A DNA stretch of 64,000 nucleotides from Candidatus Moranbacteria bacterium GW2011_GWE2_35_2- (GTDB taxonomy: Bacteria; Patescibacteriota; Minisyncoccia; Moranbacterales; UBA9337): contig LBQD01000002.1 of NCBI GenBank assembly GCA_000990585.1, positions 56,016 through 120,015 on the forward strand, written 5' to 3'. The notes under the pieces were generated by a model. That model did no database searches. It was given only the letters and a program-made list of their open reading frames with translations, and was not told where the DNA came from. The translations under genes and the position numbers were made by a program. Shown piece by piece: positions 1-58,728 of the stretch (its first letter is position 1; each line of letters begins with the position of its first letter).

Positions 1-1196
1 CCCAATCCCCATCCAATCGCTCTTCCTGGCACTTTCCTAAATTTATTTCCTACACCTTTTGCAAATGAGGTGATTTTTCCTGCTCCATATATTCCCATAC
101 TTCCCGCCATTAAGATACTTATCCACATAATTATCATTGGAATAATCAATGAGGCTGCTGTTGCCATGAAATCAGAACTCCCTGGAACTTCATAATTCTC
201 AGAAAATCTTTTCAAACTATCTCCACCTATTATATTTTCCCCGCCTATTCCCGATTCCATTAACCTTAGTGCCAGTAAATACATAAACATCATTACCGGA
301 CCAACAAGCGCGTAATTAAATAGATAATCCCACCATTTCCCTAATTTAGAGAAGCTGGGGAAAATCGGACCTACAAATCCCAGAGGTGCAAAAATAACAA
401 TCATCGCCAATGCAATAATTCTTACAAGAAAAATTCCTGCCAATGCAATCATTGTCACTGCCATCAGAAATGAAAAAACAATCAACATAAGTAATTTTAC
501 TGTAAGATTGGCATCACCACTAACACTCTCTTTTCCATCAGGAATAACCAAATTAACCAAATTAGATTTATTTAAAAAATGTGAAGAAATACTACTACTA
601 GTGTAATCATATCCCGGAAAAGCTTGTTCAACAAAAAAATACATCGTTACATTTGTCGTATCGATAATAAACCGTGCCACTGGAAAACTGAAATTTACCA
701 AAAGCGCCATCAAAACCACCATTAAAAGAATATTTTTTTTCATCAAGTGGTATTTATCTATTTGAAAAATTGTAGCAAAAGCACTAAAAAGTAATACTAA
801 GATAAAACTCAAATTTAAAAAATCACGTACAATTGTCCATCCAGCATAAACAGAATCGCTTCCTACAATACCATTTATATTAACCGGATTAATTGACCAA
901 TCAAATAACATTCCTGCAATCCAAATAAAAAAACTAACAAGAAGCCAAATTCCATATAACAAATAATTAAAAACTAATAATAATCCGTTTTTTGCTATAT
1001 CCCCGGTAGTTTCTAATACAAGATCAGCAGGACTCTTGAAATTATTAAGAAAATCAAGAGGAGCAGCACTAGTGTTATTAAAAATATTCCCATTAATATT
1101 ACAAGATAAACTAAATATAAAAAAACTAAAAATAAAAACTAAAAATATTTTTGCGATATTTTTCTTTCTTTTATTATTTATTATTTTTTGTTTCAT
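1..1196 (-). CDS. Large membrane protein, partial (C-terminus lies beyond window start). The N-terminus has a basic/hydrophobic signal-like segment (MKQKIINNKKRKK...FLVFIFSFFIF) and multiple predicted TM helices.
   Basis: The reverse-strand frame is open from the window edge up to ATG at 1194-1196, with an in-frame upstream stop at 1209-1211. Translation is hydrophobic-rich. The forward ORF 1036..1257 overlaps it and is probably spurious. Confidence 0.55.
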   Translation of the reverse strand, partial: MKQKIINNKRKKNIAKIFLVFIFSFFIFSLSCNINGNIFNNTSAAPLDFLNNFKSPADLVLETTGDIAKNGLLLVFNYLLYGIWLLVSFFIWIAGMLFDWSINPVNINGIVGSDSVYAGWTIVRDFLNLSFILVLLFSAFATIFQIDKYHLMKKNILLMVVLMALLVNFSFPVARFIIDTTNVTMYFFVEQAFPGYDYTSSSISSHFLNKSNLVNLVIPDGKESVSGDANLTVKLLMLIVFSFLMAVTMIALAGIFLVRIIALAMIVIFAPLGFVGPIFPSFSKLGKWWDYLFNYALVGPVMMFMYLLALRLMESGIGGENIIGGDSLKRFSENYEVPGSSDFMATAASLIIPMIIMWISILMAGSMGIYGAGKITSFAKGVGNKFRKVPGRAIGWGL

Positions 1197-3121: not shown

Positions 3122-4024
3122 ATGAAATTGGAAGATGTGCTTTTGGACTATTTGGAATATTTGGAAATTGAGCTTAATCGTTCCGAAAAAACAGTAGAAA
3201 ACTACCGGCATTATTTGGAACGTTTTTTTGCGTGGTCCAATATATGCCAGCCGAAACAAATTACTATGGAATTAGTAAGAAAATATAGGCTTTATCTTAA
3301 TCGTTTAGAGGATAAGAAGGGTAATACATTAAAAAGAATAACTCAAAATTATCATATTATTGCTTTGCGAAATTTTCTTAAATATTTGGCAAAAAAAGAT
3401 ATTTCTTCGCTTTCGGCGGAAAAATTGGAGGTGGGTAGGAATCCAGAGAGGGAAGTTGATTTTCTTTCGGGCGAAGAAATGAGTCGAATTCTCGGAGGTG
3501 CTTCTGGTGAGGATTTAAAAACACTCAGAGATCGCAGCATTTTAGAACTTTTGTTTTCGGCAGGACTTCGCGTAAGTGAGCTTGTAAGTGTTAATCGTGA
3601 TCAATTGAATCTTAAAACTCAAGAATTCAGTGTGCGCGGAAAAGGCTCGAAGGTGAGAATTGTATTTATTTCCGATACCGCTAAATTTTTTTTGCAAAAA
3701 TATTTAAATAAAAGAGTAGACATTGATCAAGCTTTGTTTATTCGAATTGTAAAAAATTGGCAAAATAAGGATGATCTGCGTTTAACTTCACGCAGTATTC
3801 AGCGAATAGTAAAATATTATGCACATAAAGCCGGGATTGTGAAAGATGTTCATCCACATACCCTGCGCCACAGTTTCGCGACTGATTTACTCAGCAACGG
3901 CGCGGATATTCGCTCCGTCCAAGCAATGCTCGGCCACTCCTCAATCACCACTACGCAGATTTATACACATGTTACTAACAAACAATTAAAAGATATCCAC
4001 AAGAAGTTTCATCGAAAGAAATAA
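3122..4024 (+). CDS. xerC: Tyrosine site-specific recombinase XerC/XerD family
   Basis: C-terminal catalytic region HTLRHSFATDLLSNGADIRSVQAMLGHSSITTTQIYTHV (R..H..R..Y motif pattern), with an N-terminal SAM-like core-binding domain. Confidence 0.85.
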   Translation: MKLEDVLLDYLEYLEIELNRSEKTVENYRHYLERFFAWSNICQPKQITMELVRKYRLYLNRLEDKKGNTLKRITQNYHIIALRNFLKYLAKKDISSLSAEKLEVGRNPEREVDFLSGEEMSRILGGASGEDLKTLRDRSILELLFSAGLRVSELVSVNRDQLNLKTQEFSVRGKGSKVRIVFISDTAKFFLQKYLNKRVDIDQALFIRIVKNWQNKDDLRLTSRSIQRIVKYYAHKAGIVKDVHPHTLRHSFATDLLSNGADIRSVQAMLGHSSITTTQIYTHVTNKQLKDIHKKFHRKK

Positions 4025-8243: not shown

Positions 8244-9743
8244 ATGATTAAAAAAATTCCAAAACAAGTAGTTGAGGTGTTGGAAAAAATTAAAAATGCT
8301 GGATTTGAGGCATATGTTGTCGGTGGATGTGTGCGTGATTTGATTATGGATAGGCTACCTAAGGATTGGGATGTGGCGACTAACGCTAAGCCGGAAGAAA
8401 TTCTAGCTATTTTCGGAGAGGAAAACGCTTTTTATGAGAATGATTTCGGAACAGTGGGAGTAAAAATCAGGAATCAAGAATCAGGAATCAAGAATCAAGA
8501 AGAAAAGAAAGAAATTGTGGAGGTGACGACCTATCGAATTGAAAGTAAATATTCCGATCGGAGAAGACCGGACGAGGTGAAATTCGCCAAAACGCTGGAA
8601 GAAGATTTGAGTCGGCGGGATTTTACGGTAAATGCGATTGCCCTGCGAGTTACGGACTTCACAAAATTGCAAACGGGAGCGGATGGATATGAAATTATTG
8701 ATTTATTCGGAGGACGGAAAGATATTAAAGATAGGATTATTCGAGCGGTAGGTGATGCAAGTAAAAGATTTGATGAGGATGCTCTGCGGATGATGCGGGC
8801 GGTGCGCTTCCACGCGCAATTGGGGTTTGATATTGAGAAAAAAACTTTCAAAGCGATCAAAGAAAACGCTTTTTTAATGAAACATATTTCCGCGGAAAGA
8901 ATAAAAGATGAATTTTCTAAAATAATTTTGTCAAGTAATCCGGCGGAAGGAGTGGATATGCTTCACGAAATCGGGCTTTTGAATTTTGTGATTCCGGAAT
9001 TGGAAAATGGGGTGAATGTGGGACAAAACCGCCATCATATCCATACGATATACAAACATAATTTGCTGGCGCTCAAGTTTTGTCCGTCGGAAAAATTGGA
9101 AGTGCGTCTGGCGGCGCTACTTCACGACATCGCCAAACCTCAAACCAAAAGAGGCGAGGGGTATTATTCAACTTTCTATAATCACGACCATGTGGGCGCG
9201 CGCGTGGCAAAAAAGATTTTGCAGCGGCTCAAGTTTTCCAATGAAATCATCAACAAAGTTGTGCTGTTAGTGGATAACCACATGTTTTATTACAATCCTG
9301 AAGAAGTCGGGGAGGCTTCAGTGCGCCGTTTGATTCGCAAAGTAGGATTGGAAAATATGAAAGATTTAATGGATGTGCGGATCGCCGACCGACTGGGAAG
9401 CGGAACACCGAAAGCTAAACCATACAAATTGCGCCATTTGGAATATTTAATCGACAAGGTTTCCAAAGATGCGGTATCGGTAAAAATGCTGAAAATCGGC
9501 GGCAATGATCTGATCAATGAATTGAAACTTGCCCCCGGTCCGAAAATCGGAGCGATTCTGGATGTACTTTTGGCAGAGGTGATTGAAGACGCAAAAAAGA
9601 ATAATCACCAGTATTTGCTCAAAAAAGCGACGGAACTTGACAAGGAAGATCTGTCAAAATTGCGGGAGATGGCAAAAGAAAAAATAGAAGAGAAAAAAGA
9701 GGAGGATGATAAAGAGTTGAAGGGGAGGCATTGGGTGAAATGA
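8244..9743 (+). CDS. cca: CCA-adding enzyme / tRNA nucleotidyltransferase (polymerase beta superfamily head plus HD domain)
   Basis: GGCVRDLIMDRLPKDWDVAT and RDFTVNAIA nucleotidyltransferase motifs; HD motif LLHDIAKP. Low-complexity insert coded by (CAGGAATCAAGAAT) repeats at 8468-8500. Confidence 0.85.
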   Translation: MIKKIPKQVVEVLEKIKNAGFEAYVVGGCVRDLIMDRLPKDWDVATNAKPEEILAIFGEENAFYENDFGTVGVKIRNQESGIKNQEEKKEIVEVTTYRIESKYSDRRRPDEVKFAKTLEEDLSRRDFTVNAIALRVTDFTKLQTGADGYEIIDLFGGRKDIKDRIIRAVGDASKRFDEDALRMMRAVRFHAQLGFDIEKKTFKAIKENAFLMKHISAERIKDEFSKIILSSNPAEGVDMLHEIGLLNFVIPELENGVNVGQNRHHIHTIYKHNLLALKFCPSEKLEVRLAALLHDIAKPQTKRGEGYYSTFYNHDHVGARVAKKILQRLKFSNEIINKVVLLVDNHMFYYNPEEVGEASVRRLIRKVGLENMKDLMDVRIADRLGSGTPKAKPYKLRHLEYLIDKVSKDAVSVKMLKIGGNDLINELKLAPGPKIGAILDVLLAEVIEDAKKNNHQYLLKKATELDKEDLSKLREMAKEKIEEKKEEDDKELKGRHWVK

Positions 9744-12042: not shown

Positions 12043-12642
12043 ATGTTAAATTATACTAAAATTATGTCGAAAATGGCTAAAAAACTGAATATTTTACATC
12101 AAAGCGGGCAAACGGTTTTTTCTACCAATGAGCTGATGCTACATTGGAGTATCGAAAATAAAAAGATTTTGTATACTCAAATTTCCCGCGCCAAAGAGCA
12201 AGGTTTTTTGAGAACAATCCAGCGAGGTTTGTATGCTCTGGATGGTTTGGAAGTTGACAGACTGGAGTTGGCGGGAAACCTGAAAAAAAAATCGTACATA
12301 AGTTTTGAAACTGTCCTGGCAAAAAACGGATTAATCAACCAGTGGTACGGTTCATATTTTTTGGCATCGGACAGGGAAGCGGATATTGAAAATGAGTATG
12401 GAAAATTCAATTACAGAAAACTGTCTGAAAAGATTTTGAATAATCGTTTGGGGATAATCGATAGCGGTCATTATTTTACAGCTGGCACCGAAAGAGCTAT
12501 CTGCGATTATTTTTACAAAGTCGGCTTTCAACAGCTTGATGACTTGGAGGAAATCGACCAAAACAAGCTTATTGAAATATCTAAAATTTATCACAATAAA
12601 AGGTTGGAAAAAGATATTTTAAAATTAACTAAATTGTTATGA
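12043..12642 (+). CDS. Putative AbiEi-like antitoxin / transcriptional regulator, partner of the nucleotidyltransferase below
   Basis: 199-aa ORF whose stop overlaps the start of the AbiEii-like gene (ATGA overlap). Position and size fit type IV TA antitoxins; no strong motif recognised. Confidence 0.45.
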   Translation: MLNYTKIMSKMAKKLNILHQSGQTVFSTNELMLHWSIENKKILYTQISRAKEQGFLRTIQRGLYALDGLEVDRLELAGNLKKKSYISFETVLAKNGLINQWYGSYFLASDREADIENEYGKFNYRKLSEKILNNRLGIIDSGHYFTAGTERAICDYFYKVGFQQLDDLEEIDQNKLIEISKIYHNKRLEKDILKLTKLL

Positions 12643-13355
12643 AATTGGACAAAAGCGAACACAGAAGAATAATGCTAAAAATATTGGGAGATATTTCAGC
12701 CGATCCTCTCCTGGCCAATAATCTTGGTTTTAAAGGCGGCACTGCCTGTTATTTTTTGCATGGTTTGGATCGATTTTCAGTCGATCTTGATTTTGATTTG
12801 CTAGACAAAGAAAGGGAAGAGGAAATAAAAAAACGTCTTTTGGAAATTTTGAGTAAATATGGGTCAATCAAAACAAAAACTGCTATTAAGGTCAGGTATT
12901 CCGATGATTGTCAGGCTTTGAAAATAGATCTTTCAAACAGATATGAAAACAACAAGCGGAATAAATATCAAGTCAAGGATATAGTCTCGGGAATATCCTT
13001 GAAAGTTTTGCGCAAAGAAGATATTTTTGCCCATAAATTGGTGGCGCTCACTGACAGGAGCGCTTCCGGTCAAAGTGGCACTGCTTTTATCGCAAATCGC
13101 GATTTGTATGATATTTATTTTTTCTTCAAAAACGGATGGCATTATAACAAAGAAATTATTGAGTATCAAACAAATAAAAAAGTTAAAGATTATTTGGGAT
13201 ATGCCTCTAAGTTTATAGAAAAATATTCCAACGAGTCGAATATTTTGGACAGACTCGGAGATTTGGTGGATGATGAAAAAAAAGATTGGGTTAAAAAAAA
13301 TCTGAAAAGCGAAATATTGAAACAGTTGGCGATAGAAGTTAAATCATTGGATTAA
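12639..13355 (+). CDS. AbiEii/DUF1814-family nucleotidyltransferase toxin (type IV TA / abortive infection)
   Basis: Signature LGFKGGTACYFLHGLDRFSVDLDFDLLD matches the conserved GGTAL...RFSxDLDF motif of AbiEii nucleotidyltransferases. Confidence 0.7.
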   Translation: MKLDKSEHRRIMLKILGDISADPLLANNLGFKGGTACYFLHGLDRFSVDLDFDLLDKEREEEIKKRLLEILSKYGSIKTKTAIKVRYSDDCQALKIDLSNRYENNKRNKYQVKDIVSGISLKVLRKEDIFAHKLVALTDRSASGQSGTAFIANRDLYDIYFFFKNGWHYNKEIIEYQTNKKVKDYLGYASKFIEKYSNESNILDRLGDLVDDEKKDWVKKNLKSEILKQLAIEVKSLD

Positions 13356-21533: not shown

Positions 21534-21824
21534 ATGCAGATTAAAATCGATTCAATTAAAGAAAATCCAGTCAATATCTTGCGAAGGATAGGATATATTT
21601 TTCAGCGTCATGAAGGAGATGAAATGAGTTTTGTGCGTCCTTTGGCACGCGCGGGCTTTCCGAGGTTTCATATTTATGCTAAAGTTGAAAACAGTGATTT
21701 GATTATCAATATTCATCTTGATCAGAAAAAAGAGACTTACGGAAAAGATACGAGGCATCACGGGGAATATGAAGATGATGGTGCGCTTAGTGAAGAAGTA
21801 AAAAGAATAAAAAGTATAATTTAA
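21534..21824 (+). CDS. Small hypothetical protein between the two tRNA-Leu genes
   Basis: 96-aa ORF with ATG start; no motif recognised. Confidence 0.35.
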   Translation: MQIKIDSIKENPVNILRRIGYIFQRHEGDEMSFVRPLARAGFPRFHIYAKVENSDLIINIHLDQKKETYGKDTRHHGEYEDDGALSEEVKRIKSII

Positions 21825-21913: not shown

Positions 21914-22027
21914 CGTAAGAGTCCTTGCCCCGTTATCCCGCAGGGATTTTACGGGGTCTCCCGCGGCACCACGTAAAATAAAAATAGGAATTTTTATCAC
22001 GTGGCGCAGCCACATATAAAATAGAAA

Positions 22028-22124: not shown

Positions 22125-22622
22125 TTATATCAAAAATTTTTTCTTATTTTCGCTTAAATTGACAAAATCATCGGCTTTTTCGATAAGCTTATTGCTGGTT
22201 GACTCGGCAAAGGCGATTACTTCAACGCGGCAGCCAGTGGTACTTTGAATGTATTCCATCATTGGAATGTAATCCCCGTCACCGGAAACCAAAACAATAA
22301 CATCCAAGCTTTTACTCATTTTGATTGCATCAACCGCAATTCCAACATCCCAGTCGCCTTTTTTTGCGCCACCGGGAAATATTTGTAAATCCTTGGTTTT
22401 CACTTCAAATCCGGAAGTTTCAAGTGCTTCCAAAAATTTTTCTTCCGAGCCTTCTAAAGTGCGAATACCATAGGAAACTGCACGAATAAGTTTTCTGCCG
22501 GCAGTTGCTTCTTCAAGTATTTTTTTGAAGTTTACTTTTTTGTTGTGAAGTACGCGGGCACTATAATACATATTTTGAATATCAATCAATATACCCACGC
22601 GCTGTTCTTTGAATTTAGACAT
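22125..22622 (-). CDS. NYN-domain (LabA-like) protein, putative RNase
   Basis: VGILIDIQNMYY and VIVLVSGDGDYIPMMEYIQSTTGCRVEVIAF match the LabA/NYN acidic-residue pattern. Confidence 0.7.
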   Translation of the reverse strand: MSKFKEQRVGILIDIQNMYYSARVLHNKKVNFKKILEEATAGRKLIRAVSYGIRTLEGSEEKFLEALETSGFEVKTKDLQIFPGGAKKGDWDVGIAVDAIKMSKSLDVIVLVSGDGDYIPMMEYIQSTTGCRVEVIAFAESTSNKLIEKADDFVNLSENKKKFLI

Positions 22623-27959: not shown

Positions 27960-28328
27960 TCATTTTTTCTTGAGCTTATTGTTTATTGAATTAAAAATTA
28001 GATTAAGTTCTCTTGCTTCTTGCCAAAGAATGCGTGCTTCATCTTTTATTTCCGGCAGAGCAGTTGCTATAATTCGAAACCAATATTTTGTTTCTCTCGA
28101 CTCCTTCTTGCAAATGCCTATTTTATGTTTGAAATCGTTTTTTGATTCTGCATCATCAGCCTCACAATAATTAGCTCCAACACTTGTTCCAGATCTTATT
28201 AGTTGAGAAATTATTGGCAATGTTATCGTGTCTTTAGGTAATTTTTTGCAAAATATTACAATTTTTTCTCCAAACATGGCAGTGCGTTCTTCAAGATTAT
28301 ATATTTTGTCATTTGGATTATTGGGCAT
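27960..28328 (-). CDS. Four-helix-bundle protein ('23S rRNA intervening-sequence protein' family)
   Basis: SQLIRSGTSVGANYCEADDAESKNDFKHKIGICKKESRETKYWFRI matches the family signature. Confidence 0.75.
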   Translation of the reverse strand: MPNNPNDKIYNLEERTAMFGEKIVIFCKKLPKDTITLPIISQLIRSGTSVGANYCEADDAESKNDFKHKIGICKKESRETKYWFRIIATALPEIKDEARILWQEARELNLIFNSINNKLKKK

Positions 28329-36673: not shown

Positions 36674-36939
36674 ACGGGGTTAATTTTCAATGTTTAATTT
36701 TTAATTTTTCCGCCCATGGCGGACCAGCCTTGGGCTGGCAAACAATTTTCAATGAATAAATTTTTGAATGATAAATTAAAATTAAGATTGAAATATGTAT
36801 AATAATTATATTTTTAATAATACATTGACAAGTTTTGATTTGCAAGGGAAAATCTATAGGTACTGTATATTTATTTATTTTAACGAATTCGGCTGAAATT
36901 ATTTGTATATTTGTAGCTGATTTGTAATTTTGTAGAAAT

Positions 36940-50573: not shown

Positions 50574-50687
50574 ATCTGATATTTTAAATTTCAAATTGTT
50601 CTACCTCAACCTTGTTTTATTATTGCTTGTCCGCCTTTGGAGGAAACTATACCCGCCATGGAAACTATACCCGCCATCTGATATTTC

Positions 50688-50759: not shown

Positions 50760-50822
50760 CTTTGTGTATCCAGAGGGATTCCCACTCTTGCGAGTGGTCG
50801 CCCGAGAGGGCGAGAACCTTTG

Positions 50823-50895
50823 TGCATCCAGAGGGATTCGAACCCCCGACCATATCCTTAAGAGGGATCTGCTCTACCGACTGAGCTATGGATGC
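50823..50895 (-). tRNA. tRNA-Lys (anticodon CTT)
   Basis: Reverse-strand GCATCCATAGCTCAGTCGGTAGAGCAGATCC CT-CTT-AA GGAT...GGTTCGAATCCCTCTGGATGCA. Confidence 0.7.
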
Positions 50896-57047: not shown

Positions 57048-58304
57048 TTATCCTAGTTTCAAATTCGCGTCGGCTTCCAGATTTTTCCAGTTTTGCTGGG
57101 CGTTTTCTTTTTCTTGGGCGGACATTTTTTGCCAGCGAAAAGCGGCGGCGCTAGCGATCATGGCGGCGTTGTCGCCGGTTAGTGAAATATCCGGAATTAT
57201 ATAGGAGGTGGCGGGTAATTTTTCTTCTATATTTTTTCCCAGTTGTTTGCGAAGCTCTTTATTGGCACTCACTCCACCGGCAAGCATTATTGTTTTGGGG
57301 TTGTACTGCTGGGCGGCTTTGATGGTTTTGTGGACAAGGACATCGATGGCGGCTTGCTGGAATTCACAAGCCATTTCTTCAATGACCAATGACCAATTAT
57401 CAATTTTCGATTTATTTTCTTGAAATTTTTTCATTTGGTACAAGACCGCGGTTTTAAGTCCGGAAAAAGAAAAATTGAAATCTTTCGAGTGTAGCATCGG
57501 ACGGGGCAGCTTTATTTTATGGGAAGAATTTGTTTTTGATTTTGAAATTTTGTCATTGGAAATTGTTTGGAAATTGGAAATTGGAAATTTGAAATTTGCA
57601 GCAGCAGCTGCTGCAATAGCTGGTCCTCCTGGATATCCCAAATCCAGAATTCTCGCCACTTTGTCAAAAGCTTCGCCGGCGGCATCATCCAATGTTTGTC
57701 CGACGATTTCATATTGCAGATGATCCTTCATCAAAACTAATTGCGTGTGGCCACCGGAAACGACCAAGCATAAGACAGGGAATTTTATACTGGAATTTTT
57801 AATTTTTAATTTGTAATTTTTATTGAATTTTAAATTATTTAATTTTGAACTAATATGTTTTTGTTTTGAAATTTGATTATTTGAACTTGAAAATTGTTTG
57901 GAAATTGGAAATTGAGAATTGGAAATTTCGCCAATGAAATTGGCGTATATGTGTCCTTCAATATGATGAATTCCAAGAAGCGGTTTTTTCCATTTGTATG
58001 CTAATGTCTTCGCGGTGTTGGTGCCGACAAGAAGTGCCGGAATAAGTCCCGGTCCGGCGGTAACGGCAATTAGGTCAATTTCTTTGGGAGTAATTTTAGT
58101 AGTGTCGAGAGCTTCTTTGAGGACGGGAAGAATATTTTTGAGATGTTCGCGCGCCGCCAAATTCGGCACTACGCCGCCCCATTTAGCATGAAGTTTTACT
58201 TGTGAAGAAACGATATTGGAAAGCACGTTCAAATTGTCATTATCAAAACTAATGACAGCAATCGCGGTTTCATCACAAGATGTTTCGATGGATAAAATAT
58301 TCAT
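57048..58304 (-). CDS. tsaD: tRNA N6-adenosine threonylcarbamoyltransferase TsaD (Kae1/Gcp family) with two low-complexity insertions
   Basis: SCDETAIAVI, HHIEGHIY, VVSGGHTQL, DDAAGEAFDKVARILDLGYPGGP, FSFSGLKTAV. Insertions (…ISNSQFPISKQFSSSNNQISKQKH…KIKNSSIKFP and AAAAAANFKFPISNFQTISNDKISKSKTNSSHKIKL) make it 418 aa versus a typical ~340. Confidence 0.85.
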   Translation of the reverse strand: MNILSIETSCDETAIAVISFDNDNLNVLSNIVSSQVKLHAKWGGVVPNLAAREHLKNILPVLKEALDTTKITPKEIDLIAVTAGPGLIPALLVGTNTAKTLAYKWKKPLLGIHHIEGHIYANFIGEISNSQFPISKQFSSSNNQISKQKHISSKLNNLKFNKNYKLKIKNSSIKFPVLCLVVSGGHTQLVLMKDHLQYEIVGQTLDDAAGEAFDKVARILDLGYPGGPAIAAAAAANFKFPISNFQTISNDKISKSKTNSSHKIKLPRPMLHSKDFNFSFSGLKTAVLYQMKKFQENKSKIDNWSLVIEEMACEFQQAAIDVLVHKTIKAAQQYNPKTIMLAGGVSANKELRKQLGKNIEEKLPATSYIIPDISLTGDNAAMIASAAAFRWQKMSAQEKENAQQNWKNLEADANLKLG

Positions 58305-58405
58305 ATATCTATTCTAACATAAAACCGCCCTCAGGCGGCTCATTTTGGTAGCGCTACGGAGAATCCCAGTCCGCTGGTCACCCGTCAGGGAGAGAACTCC
58401 TCTTG

Positions 58406-58480
58406 ATGGTAGCGCTACGGAGAATCGAACTCCGGTTACCAGGATGAAAACCTGGTGTCCTAACCACTAGACGATAGCGC
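58406..58480 (-). tRNA. tRNA-Glu (anticodon TTC), CCA encoded
   Basis: Reverse-strand GGCGCTATCGTCTAGTGGTTAGGACACCAGG TT-TTC-AT CCTGG TAAC CGGAG TTCGATT CTCCG TAGCGCT A CCA. Confidence 0.75.
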
Positions 58481-58728
58481 CTTGCATATTATGTTTATAT
58501 CATCAAAAACCTAATTTTTAATAATATTTTTCTTATTTGATAATCTCTCCTTTGAGCATCGAGGATGCCACCCTGGCGGGTGGTCACCTGTTAGGGTGAA
58601 AAACCTGGTGTCCTAACCACTAGACGATAGCGCCAAAATTGAAATTTAACTTTATCCAGCATAACACAGATAAAAAATAAATCAAGGGTTAGTGGCAGAT
58701 TTTTTATTTTGGGTGTAAAATTACAATT

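What the first reader, a model, noticed from the sequence alone, without database searches (positions are those of the whole stretch)
58345..58634. tRNA-Glu flanked by a 5'-half copy upstream and a 3'-end copy downstream, each joined to a shared CCCTnnCGGGyGACCA motif
In transcription order: a 35-nt copy of tRNA-Glu positions 1-35 (58600-58634), ~120 nt, the intact tRNA-Glu with encoded CCA, ~40 nt, then a 20-nt copy of its 3' end including CCA (58345-58364), then a terminator. The sequences adjoining both fragments contain ccct[a/g]ac[a/g]ggtgacca. A similar ccctctcgggcgacca precedes the tRNA-Lys 3'-end copy at 50790-50805. Downstream of tRNA-Leu(TAG) (21914-22010) there is again a degenerate T-arm/acceptor-like copy ending GGCACCA after a cccgcaggg hairpin. 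This is a recurring architecture: tRNA followed by a hairpin motif and a degenerate acceptor/T-arm copy.
Basis: partly seen in the sequence, partly recalled or inferred. Interest (0 to 1): 0.55.

Follow-up and report, generated by a model that had tools for sequence, protein, structure and literature searches.

The report
Decayed endonuclease cassette splitting tRNA-Glu
The tRNA-Glu fragments and their shared motif are what is left of a small mobile element, built from a GIY-YIG nuclease gene and a 32-base double hairpin, that invades tRNA genes in Patescibacteria while keeping one working tRNA copy; I found no published description of it.

Summary
tRNA-Glu(TTC) is flanked by an exact copy of its positions 1-35 upstream and an exact copy of positions 56-75 downstream. 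Each copy abuts the shared motif.

The motif is the first half of a 28-32 nt GC-rich double hairpin, which I call H. H sits inside what was the anticodon loop (35/36) or T-loop (56/57) of a truncated tRNA copy. tRNA-Lys(CTT) carries the same unit. The tRNA-Leu(TAG) case uses a different hairpin.

H recurs in Patescibacteria genomes and metagenomes. About 40 of 49 non-redundant copies lie in tRNA fragments next to an intact tRNA. In many relatives the space between H and tRNA-Glu holds an 81-90 aa GIY-YIG nuclease gene (Pfam PF01541). The window's own organism, a Candidatus Moranbacteria, has the complete version at its tRNA-Glu(CTC) locus. A relative, L198, has the empty site: the same upstream flank followed by a plain tRNA-Glu.

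The locus is therefore an ORF-less relic of a homing-endonuclease-like cassette. The nuclease's target and the role of H are inferred, not shown. Rfam and the paper library hold no description of it.

The parts
58600..58634 (-). Displaced 5' fragment of tRNA-Glu: an exact copy of positions 1-35, ending inside the anticodon (T34 T35 | C36).
   Evidence: blastn 35/35 identical, E 5.6e-15. In relative L198 the same upstream flank runs straight into an intact tRNA-Glu.
58568..58599 (-). Upstream double hairpin H (32 nt): TCACCC-TAAC-AGGTGA and CCACCC-GCCA-GGGTGG. It has one C.A mismatch and is decaying.
   Evidence: Model R1 scores it 52.5 bits. Fold z = -3.2 as DNA and -2.8 as RNA with flank. Three of the four window-versus-L018 differences in this roughly 290-nt stretch fall inside it.
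58560..58567 (-). catcctcg: a copy of tRNA-Glu positions 36-43 (7 of 8 bases). The anticodon arm of the pseudo-copy is therefore complete around H.
   Evidence: Read directly from the sequence. The same CATCC follows H in 18 of 49 copies.
58482..58559 (-). 78-nt spacer at the position where relatives carry the 81-90 aa GIY-YIG ORF. It is 100% identical to L018.
   Evidence: Its similarity to ORF tails is not significant: the best shuffle results were 7-9 of 200 shuffles scoring at least as high.
58407..58481 (-). Intact tRNA-Glu(TTC) with encoded CCA, the working copy.
   Evidence: ARAGORN. Rfam tRNA model 65.4 bits.
58394..58406 (-). 6-nt spacer tcaaga followed by ggagttc, a tRNA-specific copy of positions 50-56 (T-stem 5' strand plus TTC).
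   Evidence: L018 has the same GGAGTTC.
58366..58393 (-). Downstream double hairpin H (28 nt): TCTCCC-TGAC-GGGTGA and CCAG-CGGA-CTGG. It is weak, with a T.T mismatch and a short second stem.
   Evidence: R1 scores it 40.3 bits. Fold z = -1.3. L018 has a different hairpin pair at the same place.
58346..58365 (-). Displaced 3' fragment of tRNA-Glu: an exact copy of positions 56-75 including CCA.
   Evidence: blastn 20/20 identical, E 5e-6.
58321..58338 (-). Terminator-like hairpin ccgcc-tgag-ggcgg followed by tttt, then the tsaD start at 58304.
50822..50895 (-). Intact tRNA-Lys(CTT), the first gene of a Lys-Arg-His-Arg cluster.
50782..50818 (-). GGTTC followed by double hairpin H: TCGCCC-TCTC-GGGCGA and CCACTC-GCAA-GAGTGG.
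   Evidence: R1 scores it 57.4 bits. Fold z = -5.0 as DNA and -2.9 as RNA with flank.
50760..50781 (-). Copy of tRNA-Lys from position 57 to 6 nt beyond its 3' end (21 of 22 bases). tRNA-Arg(TCT) follows directly.
36709..36738 (+). Variant double hairpin with 3-nt loops (H2): TCCGCC-CAT-GGCGGA and CCAGCC-TTG-GGCTGG. It is intergenic and not inside a tRNA copy.
   Evidence: R1 scores it 17.8 bits. Fold z = -4.6. A related copy sits in-frame in tsaD of L018 and of L198.

Best explanation
The tRNA-Glu locus is a decayed, ORF-less copy of a mobile insertion that targets tRNA genes.

The complete form runs in this order:
- an old tRNA 5' piece (1-35)
- the double hairpin H
- a copy of positions 36-43
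- a free-standing 81-90 aa GIY-YIG nuclease gene
- an intact tRNA-Glu
- a short spacer
- a copy of positions 50-56
- H again
- an old tRNA 3' piece (57-76)
- the original terminator

One working tRNA is always kept. The severed pieces of the other copy remain outside it, each with H exactly in its former anticodon loop or T-loop. In this window the nuclease gene is gone at tRNA-Glu(TTC). tRNA-Lys(CTT) carries only the short downstream (T-loop) version.

Inferred mechanism: the nuclease breaks a tRNA gene in or near a loop, after a run of T. The break is repaired by copying from a cassette-bearing allele, using the tRNA pieces and flanks as homology. This is homing, and it reproduces the partial duplication. 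ORF-less copies persist, or are moved in trans, and then decay.

Shown: the architecture, its recurrence, the link with GIY-YIG, an empty site, and an intact cassette in the same organism.

Inferred: cleavage by the nuclease, its site, and whether H arrives with the cassette or inserts separately.
For: 1. Anatomy at both loci.

2. H is a structured unit:
- 98% of pair cells are paired, against 34-50% when the 3' partners are slid.
- There are compensatory pairs: AU 7, GC 3, CG 1 in hairpin 1, and CG 7, GC 3 in hairpin 2.
- Fold z-scores are -3 to -5 for four of the five copies folded as DNA, and -1.3 for the degraded Glu-downstream copy.

3. Recurrence:
- All 12 true genome hits lie after tRNAs.
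- By my reading of the flanks, about 40 of 49 non-redundant copies sit in tRNA fragments.

4. The GIY-YIG ORF:
- In 11 metagenome loci and in L192, H is followed after about 20-45 nt by an 84-90 aa ORF, and then by an intact tRNA-Glu that starts 301-320 nt after the start of H.
- The ORF matches PF01541 at E 1e-15.
- It has 1211 homologues, in Patescibacteria and Bacteroidota.

5. L192-194 show the complete two-ended form. The two H copies there are identical at 32 of 32 bases.

6. That nuclease (P0007) and the window's TsaD (P0121) carry accessions in the same four accession series. I take these to be the same Candidatus Moranbacteria assemblies.

7. Empty site: L198 has an upstream flank almost identical to the window's (identical to L018's), followed directly by a plain tRNA-Glu.

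8. In L104 the outer 5' and 3' pieces pair with each other, not with the inner tRNA. In L115 and L182 the outer 3' piece differs from the adjacent tRNA. A whole tRNA therefore travelled with the cassette.

9. L109 shows the downstream form with the ORF in place. L145 and L195 show tandem units, as expected if the intact tRNA can be hit again.

10. The window and L018 are almost identical around tRNA-Glu, yet carry different spacer and hairpin sequences at the downstream site.
Against: - No nuclease gene lies in the 64-kb window.
- The 78-nt spacer cannot be shown to be an ORF remnant.
- The intact tRNA inside the cassette is identical to the presumed target, so the usual homing immunity through site disruption is not explained.
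- The 81-90 aa protein is a bare catalytic domain with no obvious DNA-binding module.
- H also occurs outside tRNA copies and without an adjacent ORF (window 36709-36738, tsaD of L018 and L198, L150, L078).
- Pseudo-copies in L080, L109 and L138 carry several different hairpin inserts. H may therefore be a separate small element that merely accumulates in dispensable tRNA pieces.
- The short T-loop versions at tRNAs other than Glu were never seen with an ORF in place.
Confidence: 0.68

Rival explanations
1. H is an autonomous miniature palindromic repeat, comparable to mitochondrial double-hairpin elements, REP or RPE. It inserts after TT(C) in hairpin loops and survives only where insertion is harmless, that is, in tRNA pseudo-fragments created by some other process. 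The GIY-YIG gene is unrelated to H mobility.
For: - H lies in non-tRNA sites and in-frame in tsaD of relatives.
- Several different hairpin inserts sit in one pseudo-copy.
- There is a flank preference: TTC, TTT, TCT or GTT on the 5' side in 40 of 49 copies.
Against: - At least one H sits next to the tRNA pseudo-fragment in every cassette I examined, though it is truncated or shifted in L104, L109 and L128.
- The two H copies of one locus are the same variant: 32 of 32 in L192, the same rare loop in L109, and the same rare C-G pair in L104.
- H keeps a constant distance to the ORF.
- No other source of the pseudo-fragments is known.
Confidence: 0.17
2. H together with the tRNA end copy is a functional RNA module of tRNA transcripts, serving as a processing, stability or regulatory structure and kept by selection.
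For: - Compensatory changes keep both stems.
- Hairpins are retained although their sequence was replaced between the window and L018.
- H always has the tRNA's orientation and lies inside the transcription unit, before the terminator.
Against: - Presence and absence vary between close relatives.
- The window's Glu copies are visibly degrading.
- H occurs in coding sequence and elsewhere.
- No Rfam family matches it.
- Stems would be kept equally well by a DNA-level requirement.
Confidence: 0.07
3. These are remnant attachment sites (attL/attR) of integrase-borne islands or prophages that integrated into tRNA genes and were later deleted.
For: - Direct repeats running from the T-loop to the tRNA 3' end are typical of integrase targets.
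- A XerC/D-like tyrosine recombinase gene lies at 3122-4024.
Against: - No integrase gene is adjacent in any of the loci I read or whose gene calls were returned.
- The insert between the repeats is only 40-60 nt and conserved.
- 5'-side duplications also occur.
- The hairpin interrupts the loop where an integrase crossover would leave it intact.
- The inner boundaries of the copies vary, from 2 to 13 nt.
- The viral contig scan gave no hit.
Confidence: 0.03
4. H plus the 20-nt tRNA copy is a guide-RNA-like unit, with H as the scaffold, a tRNA-matching guide, and TTC as the adjacent motif, serving an RNA-guided nuclease or transposase.
For: - The layout is a roughly 37-nt structured repeat followed by about 20 nt identical to the tRNA gene, next to TTC.
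Against: - In the upstream type the tRNA copy lies 5' of H, and its length varies (5, 8, 11 or 35 nt).
- The copies extend a variable distance into the tRNA flanks.
- No Cas, TnpB or IscB gene was seen in the window or in the loci.
Confidence: 0.02

Closest known systems
Free-standing GIY-YIG homing endonuclease genes, such as phage T4 SegB in the tRNA gene cluster (PMC2330249). From my own knowledge: mobile endonuclease ORFs in fungal mitochondria that bring a replacement copy of a gene end and displace the original, as in Allomyces atp6.
   Same: - The nuclease gene is small and free-standing, not inside an intron or intein.
- It lies in or next to conserved RNA genes.
- Its distribution is patchy, with filled, empty and degenerate states.
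- It is accompanied by a duplicated gene portion, so the host gene stays functional.
   Different: - The protein is only 81-90 aa: a bare catalytic domain of the UPF0213 type, with closest solved structures 1zg2 and 1ywl.
- The target gene copy inside the cassette is unchanged, so immunity is unexplained.
- A conserved double hairpin marks the break point.
- The hosts are Patescibacteria and Bacteroidota chromosomes.
- No cleavage data exist.
Double-hairpin and repetitive hairpin-forming elements of mitochondrial genomes (Allomyces DHEs, as reviewed in PMC2800124); yeast mtDNA GC clusters; Rickettsia palindromic elements (from my own knowledge).
   Same: - They are short GC-rich two-stem-loop units in an AT-rich genome.
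- They occur in many dispersed copies.
- They differ in presence between close relatives.
- They are found in intergenic DNA, structural RNA genes and in-frame in proteins.
   Different: - No sequence relationship was tested or is expected.
- Here there is a strong preference for tRNA stem-loops after TT(C).
- Here there is a physical link to a nuclease gene and to partial tRNA duplication.
Integrase-mediated insertion into tRNA genes (T-loop and anticodon-loop sublocations).
   Same: - A direct repeat of the tRNA 3' part is produced.
- The tRNA is kept intact.
- The same loops are used.
   Different: - There is no integrase.
- The insert is tiny.
- The hairpin sits in the loop.
- 5' duplications occur.
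- A GIY-YIG gene is present instead.

Membership tests
Free-standing homing endonuclease cassette (GIY-YIG) | Encodes a GIY-YIG nuclease. | tested here: met
   The ORFs between H and tRNA-Glu in relatives match PF01541 at E 1e-15 and 3e-16. The same organism carries one at tRNA-Glu(CTC). The window locus itself has no ORF.
Free-standing homing endonuclease cassette (GIY-YIG) | Presence/absence polymorphism at a conserved target among close relatives. | tested here: met
   L198 is empty while the window and L018 are filled, with near-identical upstream flanks. L027 is filled while the window is empty at tRNA-Arg(CCT).
Free-standing homing endonuclease cassette (GIY-YIG) | The nuclease cleaves the cassette-less allele site-specifically. 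| not testable with these tools
   This needs an enzyme assay.
Free-standing homing endonuclease cassette (GIY-YIG) | The cassette-bearing allele is immune because the site is disrupted or altered. | tested here: inconclusive
   H disrupts the loop of the pseudo-copy, but the intact tRNA is identical to the presumed target. Tandem units in L145 and L195 suggest repeated hits.
Free-standing homing endonuclease cassette (GIY-YIG) | Co-conversion or import of flanking donor sequence. | tested here: met
   In L104, L115 and L182 the inner tRNA differs from the outer fragments. In L104 the outer 5' and 3' pieces pair with each other.
Double-hairpin / repetitive hairpin elements | Two adjacent GC-rich stem-loops, present as many dispersed copies and variable between relatives. 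| tested here: met
   Genome GC content is 36%.
Double-hairpin / repetitive hairpin elements | Sequence homology to the described mitochondrial elements. | not tested
   No reference sequences were on hand. Any resemblance is of form only.
Integrase attachment-site remnant | An integrase gene, or a kb-sized element, lies between the repeats. | tested here: not met
   Inserts are 37-60 nt. None of the loci I read, or whose gene calls were returned, has an adjacent integrase.
tRNA intron (group I or bulge-helix-bulge) | Interrupts an otherwise complete tRNA gene. | tested here: not met
   Deleting H in silico gave no tRNA across the junction in any of 33 loci. An intact tRNA of the same kind lies alongside.
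IS200/IS605-type miniature element or REP | An associated Y1/HUH transposase (TnpA or RAYT). | tested here: inconclusive
   None was found in the window's gene set. The rest of the genome was not searched. The lack of a target duplication and the insertion 3' of a short T-rich motif do resemble this class.
Any Rfam RNA family | A match to a curated covariance model. | tested here: not met
   Only tRNA hits were returned, at both gathering and relaxed thresholds.

The most novel reading that the evidence does not exclude
The 81-90 aa GIY-YIG protein and the double hairpin together form a new class of bacterial mobile element. In this reading, a catalytic-domain-only nuclease gets its specificity from nucleic-acid structure: either the hairpin itself or the extruded tRNA stem-loops. 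It cuts tRNA gene loops and spreads as a self-healing cassette that carries its own tRNA. The hairpin would be an essential cis-acting or guide-like part, not a passenger.
Probability: 0.2. Interest if true: 0.85.

Novelty: new variant of a known kind. Interest (0 to 1): 0.6.

Why it matters
- It explains the tRNA halves and 3'-end copies that litter Patescibacteria genomes, which can mislead tRNA annotation and island prediction.
- It proposes a biological role, as a selfish tRNA-gene-invading nuclease, for a very large family of tiny GIY-YIG proteins of the UPF0213 type. These are often mis-annotated as 'excinuclease ABC subunit C' and have no assigned function.
- It shows in bacterial chromosomes the pairing of a mobile endonuclease ORF with double-hairpin repeats, a pairing so far known from fungal mitochondria.
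- If the nuclease recognises DNA structure or uses the hairpin, it would be one of the smallest site-selective nuclease systems known.

Tried and rejected
- **Viral contigs:** a scan with the motif gave 0 hits.
- **Rfam:** nothing but tRNA, at gathering and at relaxed thresholds.
- **tRNA intron:** rejected. No tRNA is recovered after removing H.
- **Integrase att remnant, guide RNA, Cas1-like long target duplication, ribozyme three-way junction:** considered from anatomy and rejected (see the rival explanations). The main reasons are the variable inner boundaries, the 5' versus 3' symmetry and the GIY-YIG link.
- **Spacer as ORF remnant:** the 78-nt spacer was compared with the ORF tails of nine loci and the similarity is not significant.
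- **tRNA-Leu(TAG) downstream region:** not matched by the H model. It is a different nested hairpin.
- **High-GC hits:** these hits in both collection scans appear to be chance matches in coding sequence.
- **Literature:** seven searches found no description. They covered CPR tRNA insertions, GIY-YIG with tRNA, YhbQ/UPF0213 and double-hairpin elements.
- **96-aa ORF between the two tRNA-Leu genes:** a Pfam search gave nothing.

Full report
**1.

On the - strand, tRNA-Glu(TTC) lies at 58481-58407 and has an encoded CCA.

An exact copy of its positions 1-35 lies at 58634-58600. An exact copy of positions 56-75 lies at 58365-58346.

The motif CCCTNNCGGGNGACCA adjoins both copies. It also occurs after tRNA-Lys(CTT), at 50810-50795. 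The search found 5 matches at up to 2 mismatches, against 0.33 expected from shuffles. A 22-nt copy of the tRNA-Lys 3' end plus trailer follows it at 50781-50760.

**2. Anatomy of the hairpin unit.**

The motif is only half of a unit that I call H. H consists of two abutting hairpins: TCNCCC-NNNN-GGGNGA and CCANNN-NNNN-NNNTGG.

The 'CCA' is the 5' strand of the second stem, not an acceptor end.

H does not simply join the tRNA fragments. It sits inside a loop of a truncated tRNA copy:
- Upstream, the order is Glu 1-35 | H | catcctcg (positions 36-43).
- Downstream, the order is ggagttc (positions 50-56) | H | positions 57-76.
- At Lys, the order is GGTTC | H | position 57 to 6 nt beyond the 3' end.

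Across 13 copies, 98% of pair cells are standard pairs, against 34-50% when the 3' partners are slid. Compensatory changes occur in both stems.

**3. The unit recurs, and almost always with tRNAs.**

An exact-pattern scan of one genome per species gave 68 hits. About 54 are in high-GC genomes, apparently in coding sequence.

All 12 convincing low-GC hits lie 15-55 nt after a tRNA gene. Each is followed by a copy of that tRNA from position 57 onward. They come from three genomes labelled Patescibacteria and two MAGs labelled Bdellovibrionales. Those two MAGs are 80-91% identical to this window.

A covariance model found further diverged copies.

A metagenome scan that used no tRNA-derived flank gave about 41 true copies.

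Over all 49 non-redundant copies, the 5' flank is TTC, TTT, TCT or GTT in 40. The 3' flank is CAT, GAT or GAA in 32. By my reading of the flanks, about 40 of the 49 lie in recognisable tRNA fragments.

Removing H in silico never restores a tRNA, so H is not an intron.

**4. The link to a nuclease gene.**

In 11 metagenome loci and in L192, H lies in a tRNA-Glu 5' fragment. It is followed after about 20-45 nt by an 84-90 aa ORF. An intact tRNA-Glu then starts 301-320 nt after the start of H. The ORF sometimes overlaps the start of the tRNA.

The ORF is a GIY-YIG catalytic domain (PF01541, E 1e-15). It has 1211 homologues in Patescibacteria and Bacteroidota. Its closest solved structures are UPF0213 proteins.

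A Bacteroidota-type genome has the same layout with a variant hairpin, once or twice in tandem.

L192-194 show the full two-ended form: 5' piece - H - ORF - tRNA-Glu(CTC) - 19 nt - GGGGGTTC - H - 3' piece - terminator. The two H copies are identical at 32 of 32 bases. The window's tRNA-Glu(TTC) locus has exactly this architecture minus the ORF.

That nuclease (P0007) and the window's TsaD carry accessions in the same four accession series, which I take to be the same Candidatus Moranbacteria assemblies. This organism therefore has an intact cassette elsewhere in its genome.

**5. It is an insertion and it turns over.**

- *Empty site.* Relative L198 has an upstream flank almost identical to the window's (identical to L018's). 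The flank runs directly into a plain tRNA-Glu, with no H and no duplication. Relative to L198, the window therefore carries a 153-nt insertion at position 35/36.
- *tRNA-Arg(CCT).* L027 is filled at this tRNA and the window is empty.
- *Replacement at one site.* The window and L018 are almost identical around tRNA-Glu. Yet they have different spacer and hairpin sequences at the downstream site. Within each genome the tRNA end and its copy co-vary.
- *Imported tRNA.* In L104 the outer 5' and 3' pieces pair with each other and differ from the inner tRNA. L115 and L182 also show a foreign outer 3' piece. A complete tRNA therefore travelled with the cassette.
- *Other forms.* L109 shows the downstream form with the ORF in place. 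L145 and L195 show tandem units.

**6. Most likely mechanism (inferred).**

The cassette behaves like a free-standing homing-endonuclease gene. A break in a tRNA gene loop is repaired by copying from a cassette-bearing allele. The tRNA pieces and flanks serve as homology, and one intact tRNA is retained. The window then shows the degeneration stage expected for such elements.

Several points remain unexplained:
- how the intact inner tRNA escapes cutting;
- how an 85-aa catalytic domain finds its target;
- what H does.

H also occurs alone: intergenic at window 36709-36738, and in-frame in tsaD of L018 and L198. Some pseudo-copies carry several different hairpins. H may therefore be a separate small repeat that accumulates where insertion is harmless. 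Against that, the H copies within one cassette are the same variant.

**7. Comparison with what is known, and novelty.**

The closest parallels are:
- T4 SegB, a GIY-YIG homing enzyme in a tRNA cluster (PMC2330249);
- mitochondrial double-hairpin elements (PMC2800124);
- from my own knowledge, mobile ORFs in fungal mitochondria that duplicate a gene end.

Rfam has no family for H. Seven literature searches found no description. The library is incomplete, so prior description cannot be excluded.

I rate it a new variant of a known kind. The window itself holds only relics.

**8. The tRNA-Leu(TAG) case.**

There is a degenerate 3'-end copy. The hairpin is a different, nested one and does not match the H model. 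The theme is the same but the element is not.

Noticed in passing
window 50630-50686 (- strand), between tRNA-Arg(TCT) and tRNA-His: Two partial 5' copies of tRNA-His. One includes 12 nt of leader (24 of 24 bases) and the other matches 15 of 15. Both end at position 12 (GTT). The second is followed by TCCTCC-AAA-GGCGGA, which resembles a degenerate first hairpin of the H2 variant. This may be another relic of the same process.
   Followed up: partly
L018 ~205-234 (- strand) and L198 2208-2237, inside tsaD; corresponding window region ~57780-57900: A 30-nt H2 double hairpin lies in-frame inside tsaD of two relatives, in two different variable regions of the protein. The window's tsaD has low-complexity inserts there but no hairpin. 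Small palindromic repeats may contribute to the protein inserts typical of these bacteria, as Rickettsia palindromic elements do.
   Followed up: partly
window 21915-22010 (+ strand), after tRNA-Leu(TAG); L027 5195-5243: The degenerate tRNA-Leu 3' copy is interrupted by a nested hairpin (ccccgt..tccc-gca-ggga..acgggg). It is followed by a module ACGTAAAAT...ATCACGTGGCRCAGC, which also follows the tRNA-Arg(CCT) 3' copy in relative L027. Its meaning is unknown.
   Followed up: partly
window 21534-21824 (+ strand): A 96-aa ORF with no Pfam match sits between tRNA-Leu(CAG) and tRNA-Leu(TAG). The two tRNAs match at 26 of their first 27 bases. It could be another small gene lodged in a tRNA locus.
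   Followed up: partly
window 58407-58410 and 58346-58349, compared with L018 and L198: The window's tRNA-Glu and its 3' copy both end in CTACCA, an encoded CCA. Relatives L018 and L198 have CTACAAA. In the window and in L018 the one-base difference is present in both repeat copies of that genome, which points to gene conversion or independent re-insertion. Most other tRNAs in the window lack an encoded CCA, and a CCA-adding enzyme gene (8244-9743) follows tRNA-Arg(CCT).
   Followed up: partly
L109 ~8270-8700 (- strand): The tRNA-Glu 5' pseudo-copies here are riddled with several different GC-rich hairpin inserts: after positions 12 and 21, and at 35/36. They are accompanied by a second, divergent GIY-YIG ORF. 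This is a nested pile-up of such elements.
   Followed up: no
window 27960-28328 (- strand); 12639-13355; 22125-22622: There is a lone Avd-like '23S rRNA intervening sequence protein' gene with no reverse transcriptase nearby. An AbiEii-family gene is also present, as is a NYN-domain gene next to the tRNA-Leu locus.
   Followed up: no
L018 and L027 record titles: Two MAGs deposited as 'uncultured Bdellovibrionales' are 80-91% identical in DNA to this Candidatus Moranbacteria window. Their taxonomic label looks wrong.
   Followed up: partly
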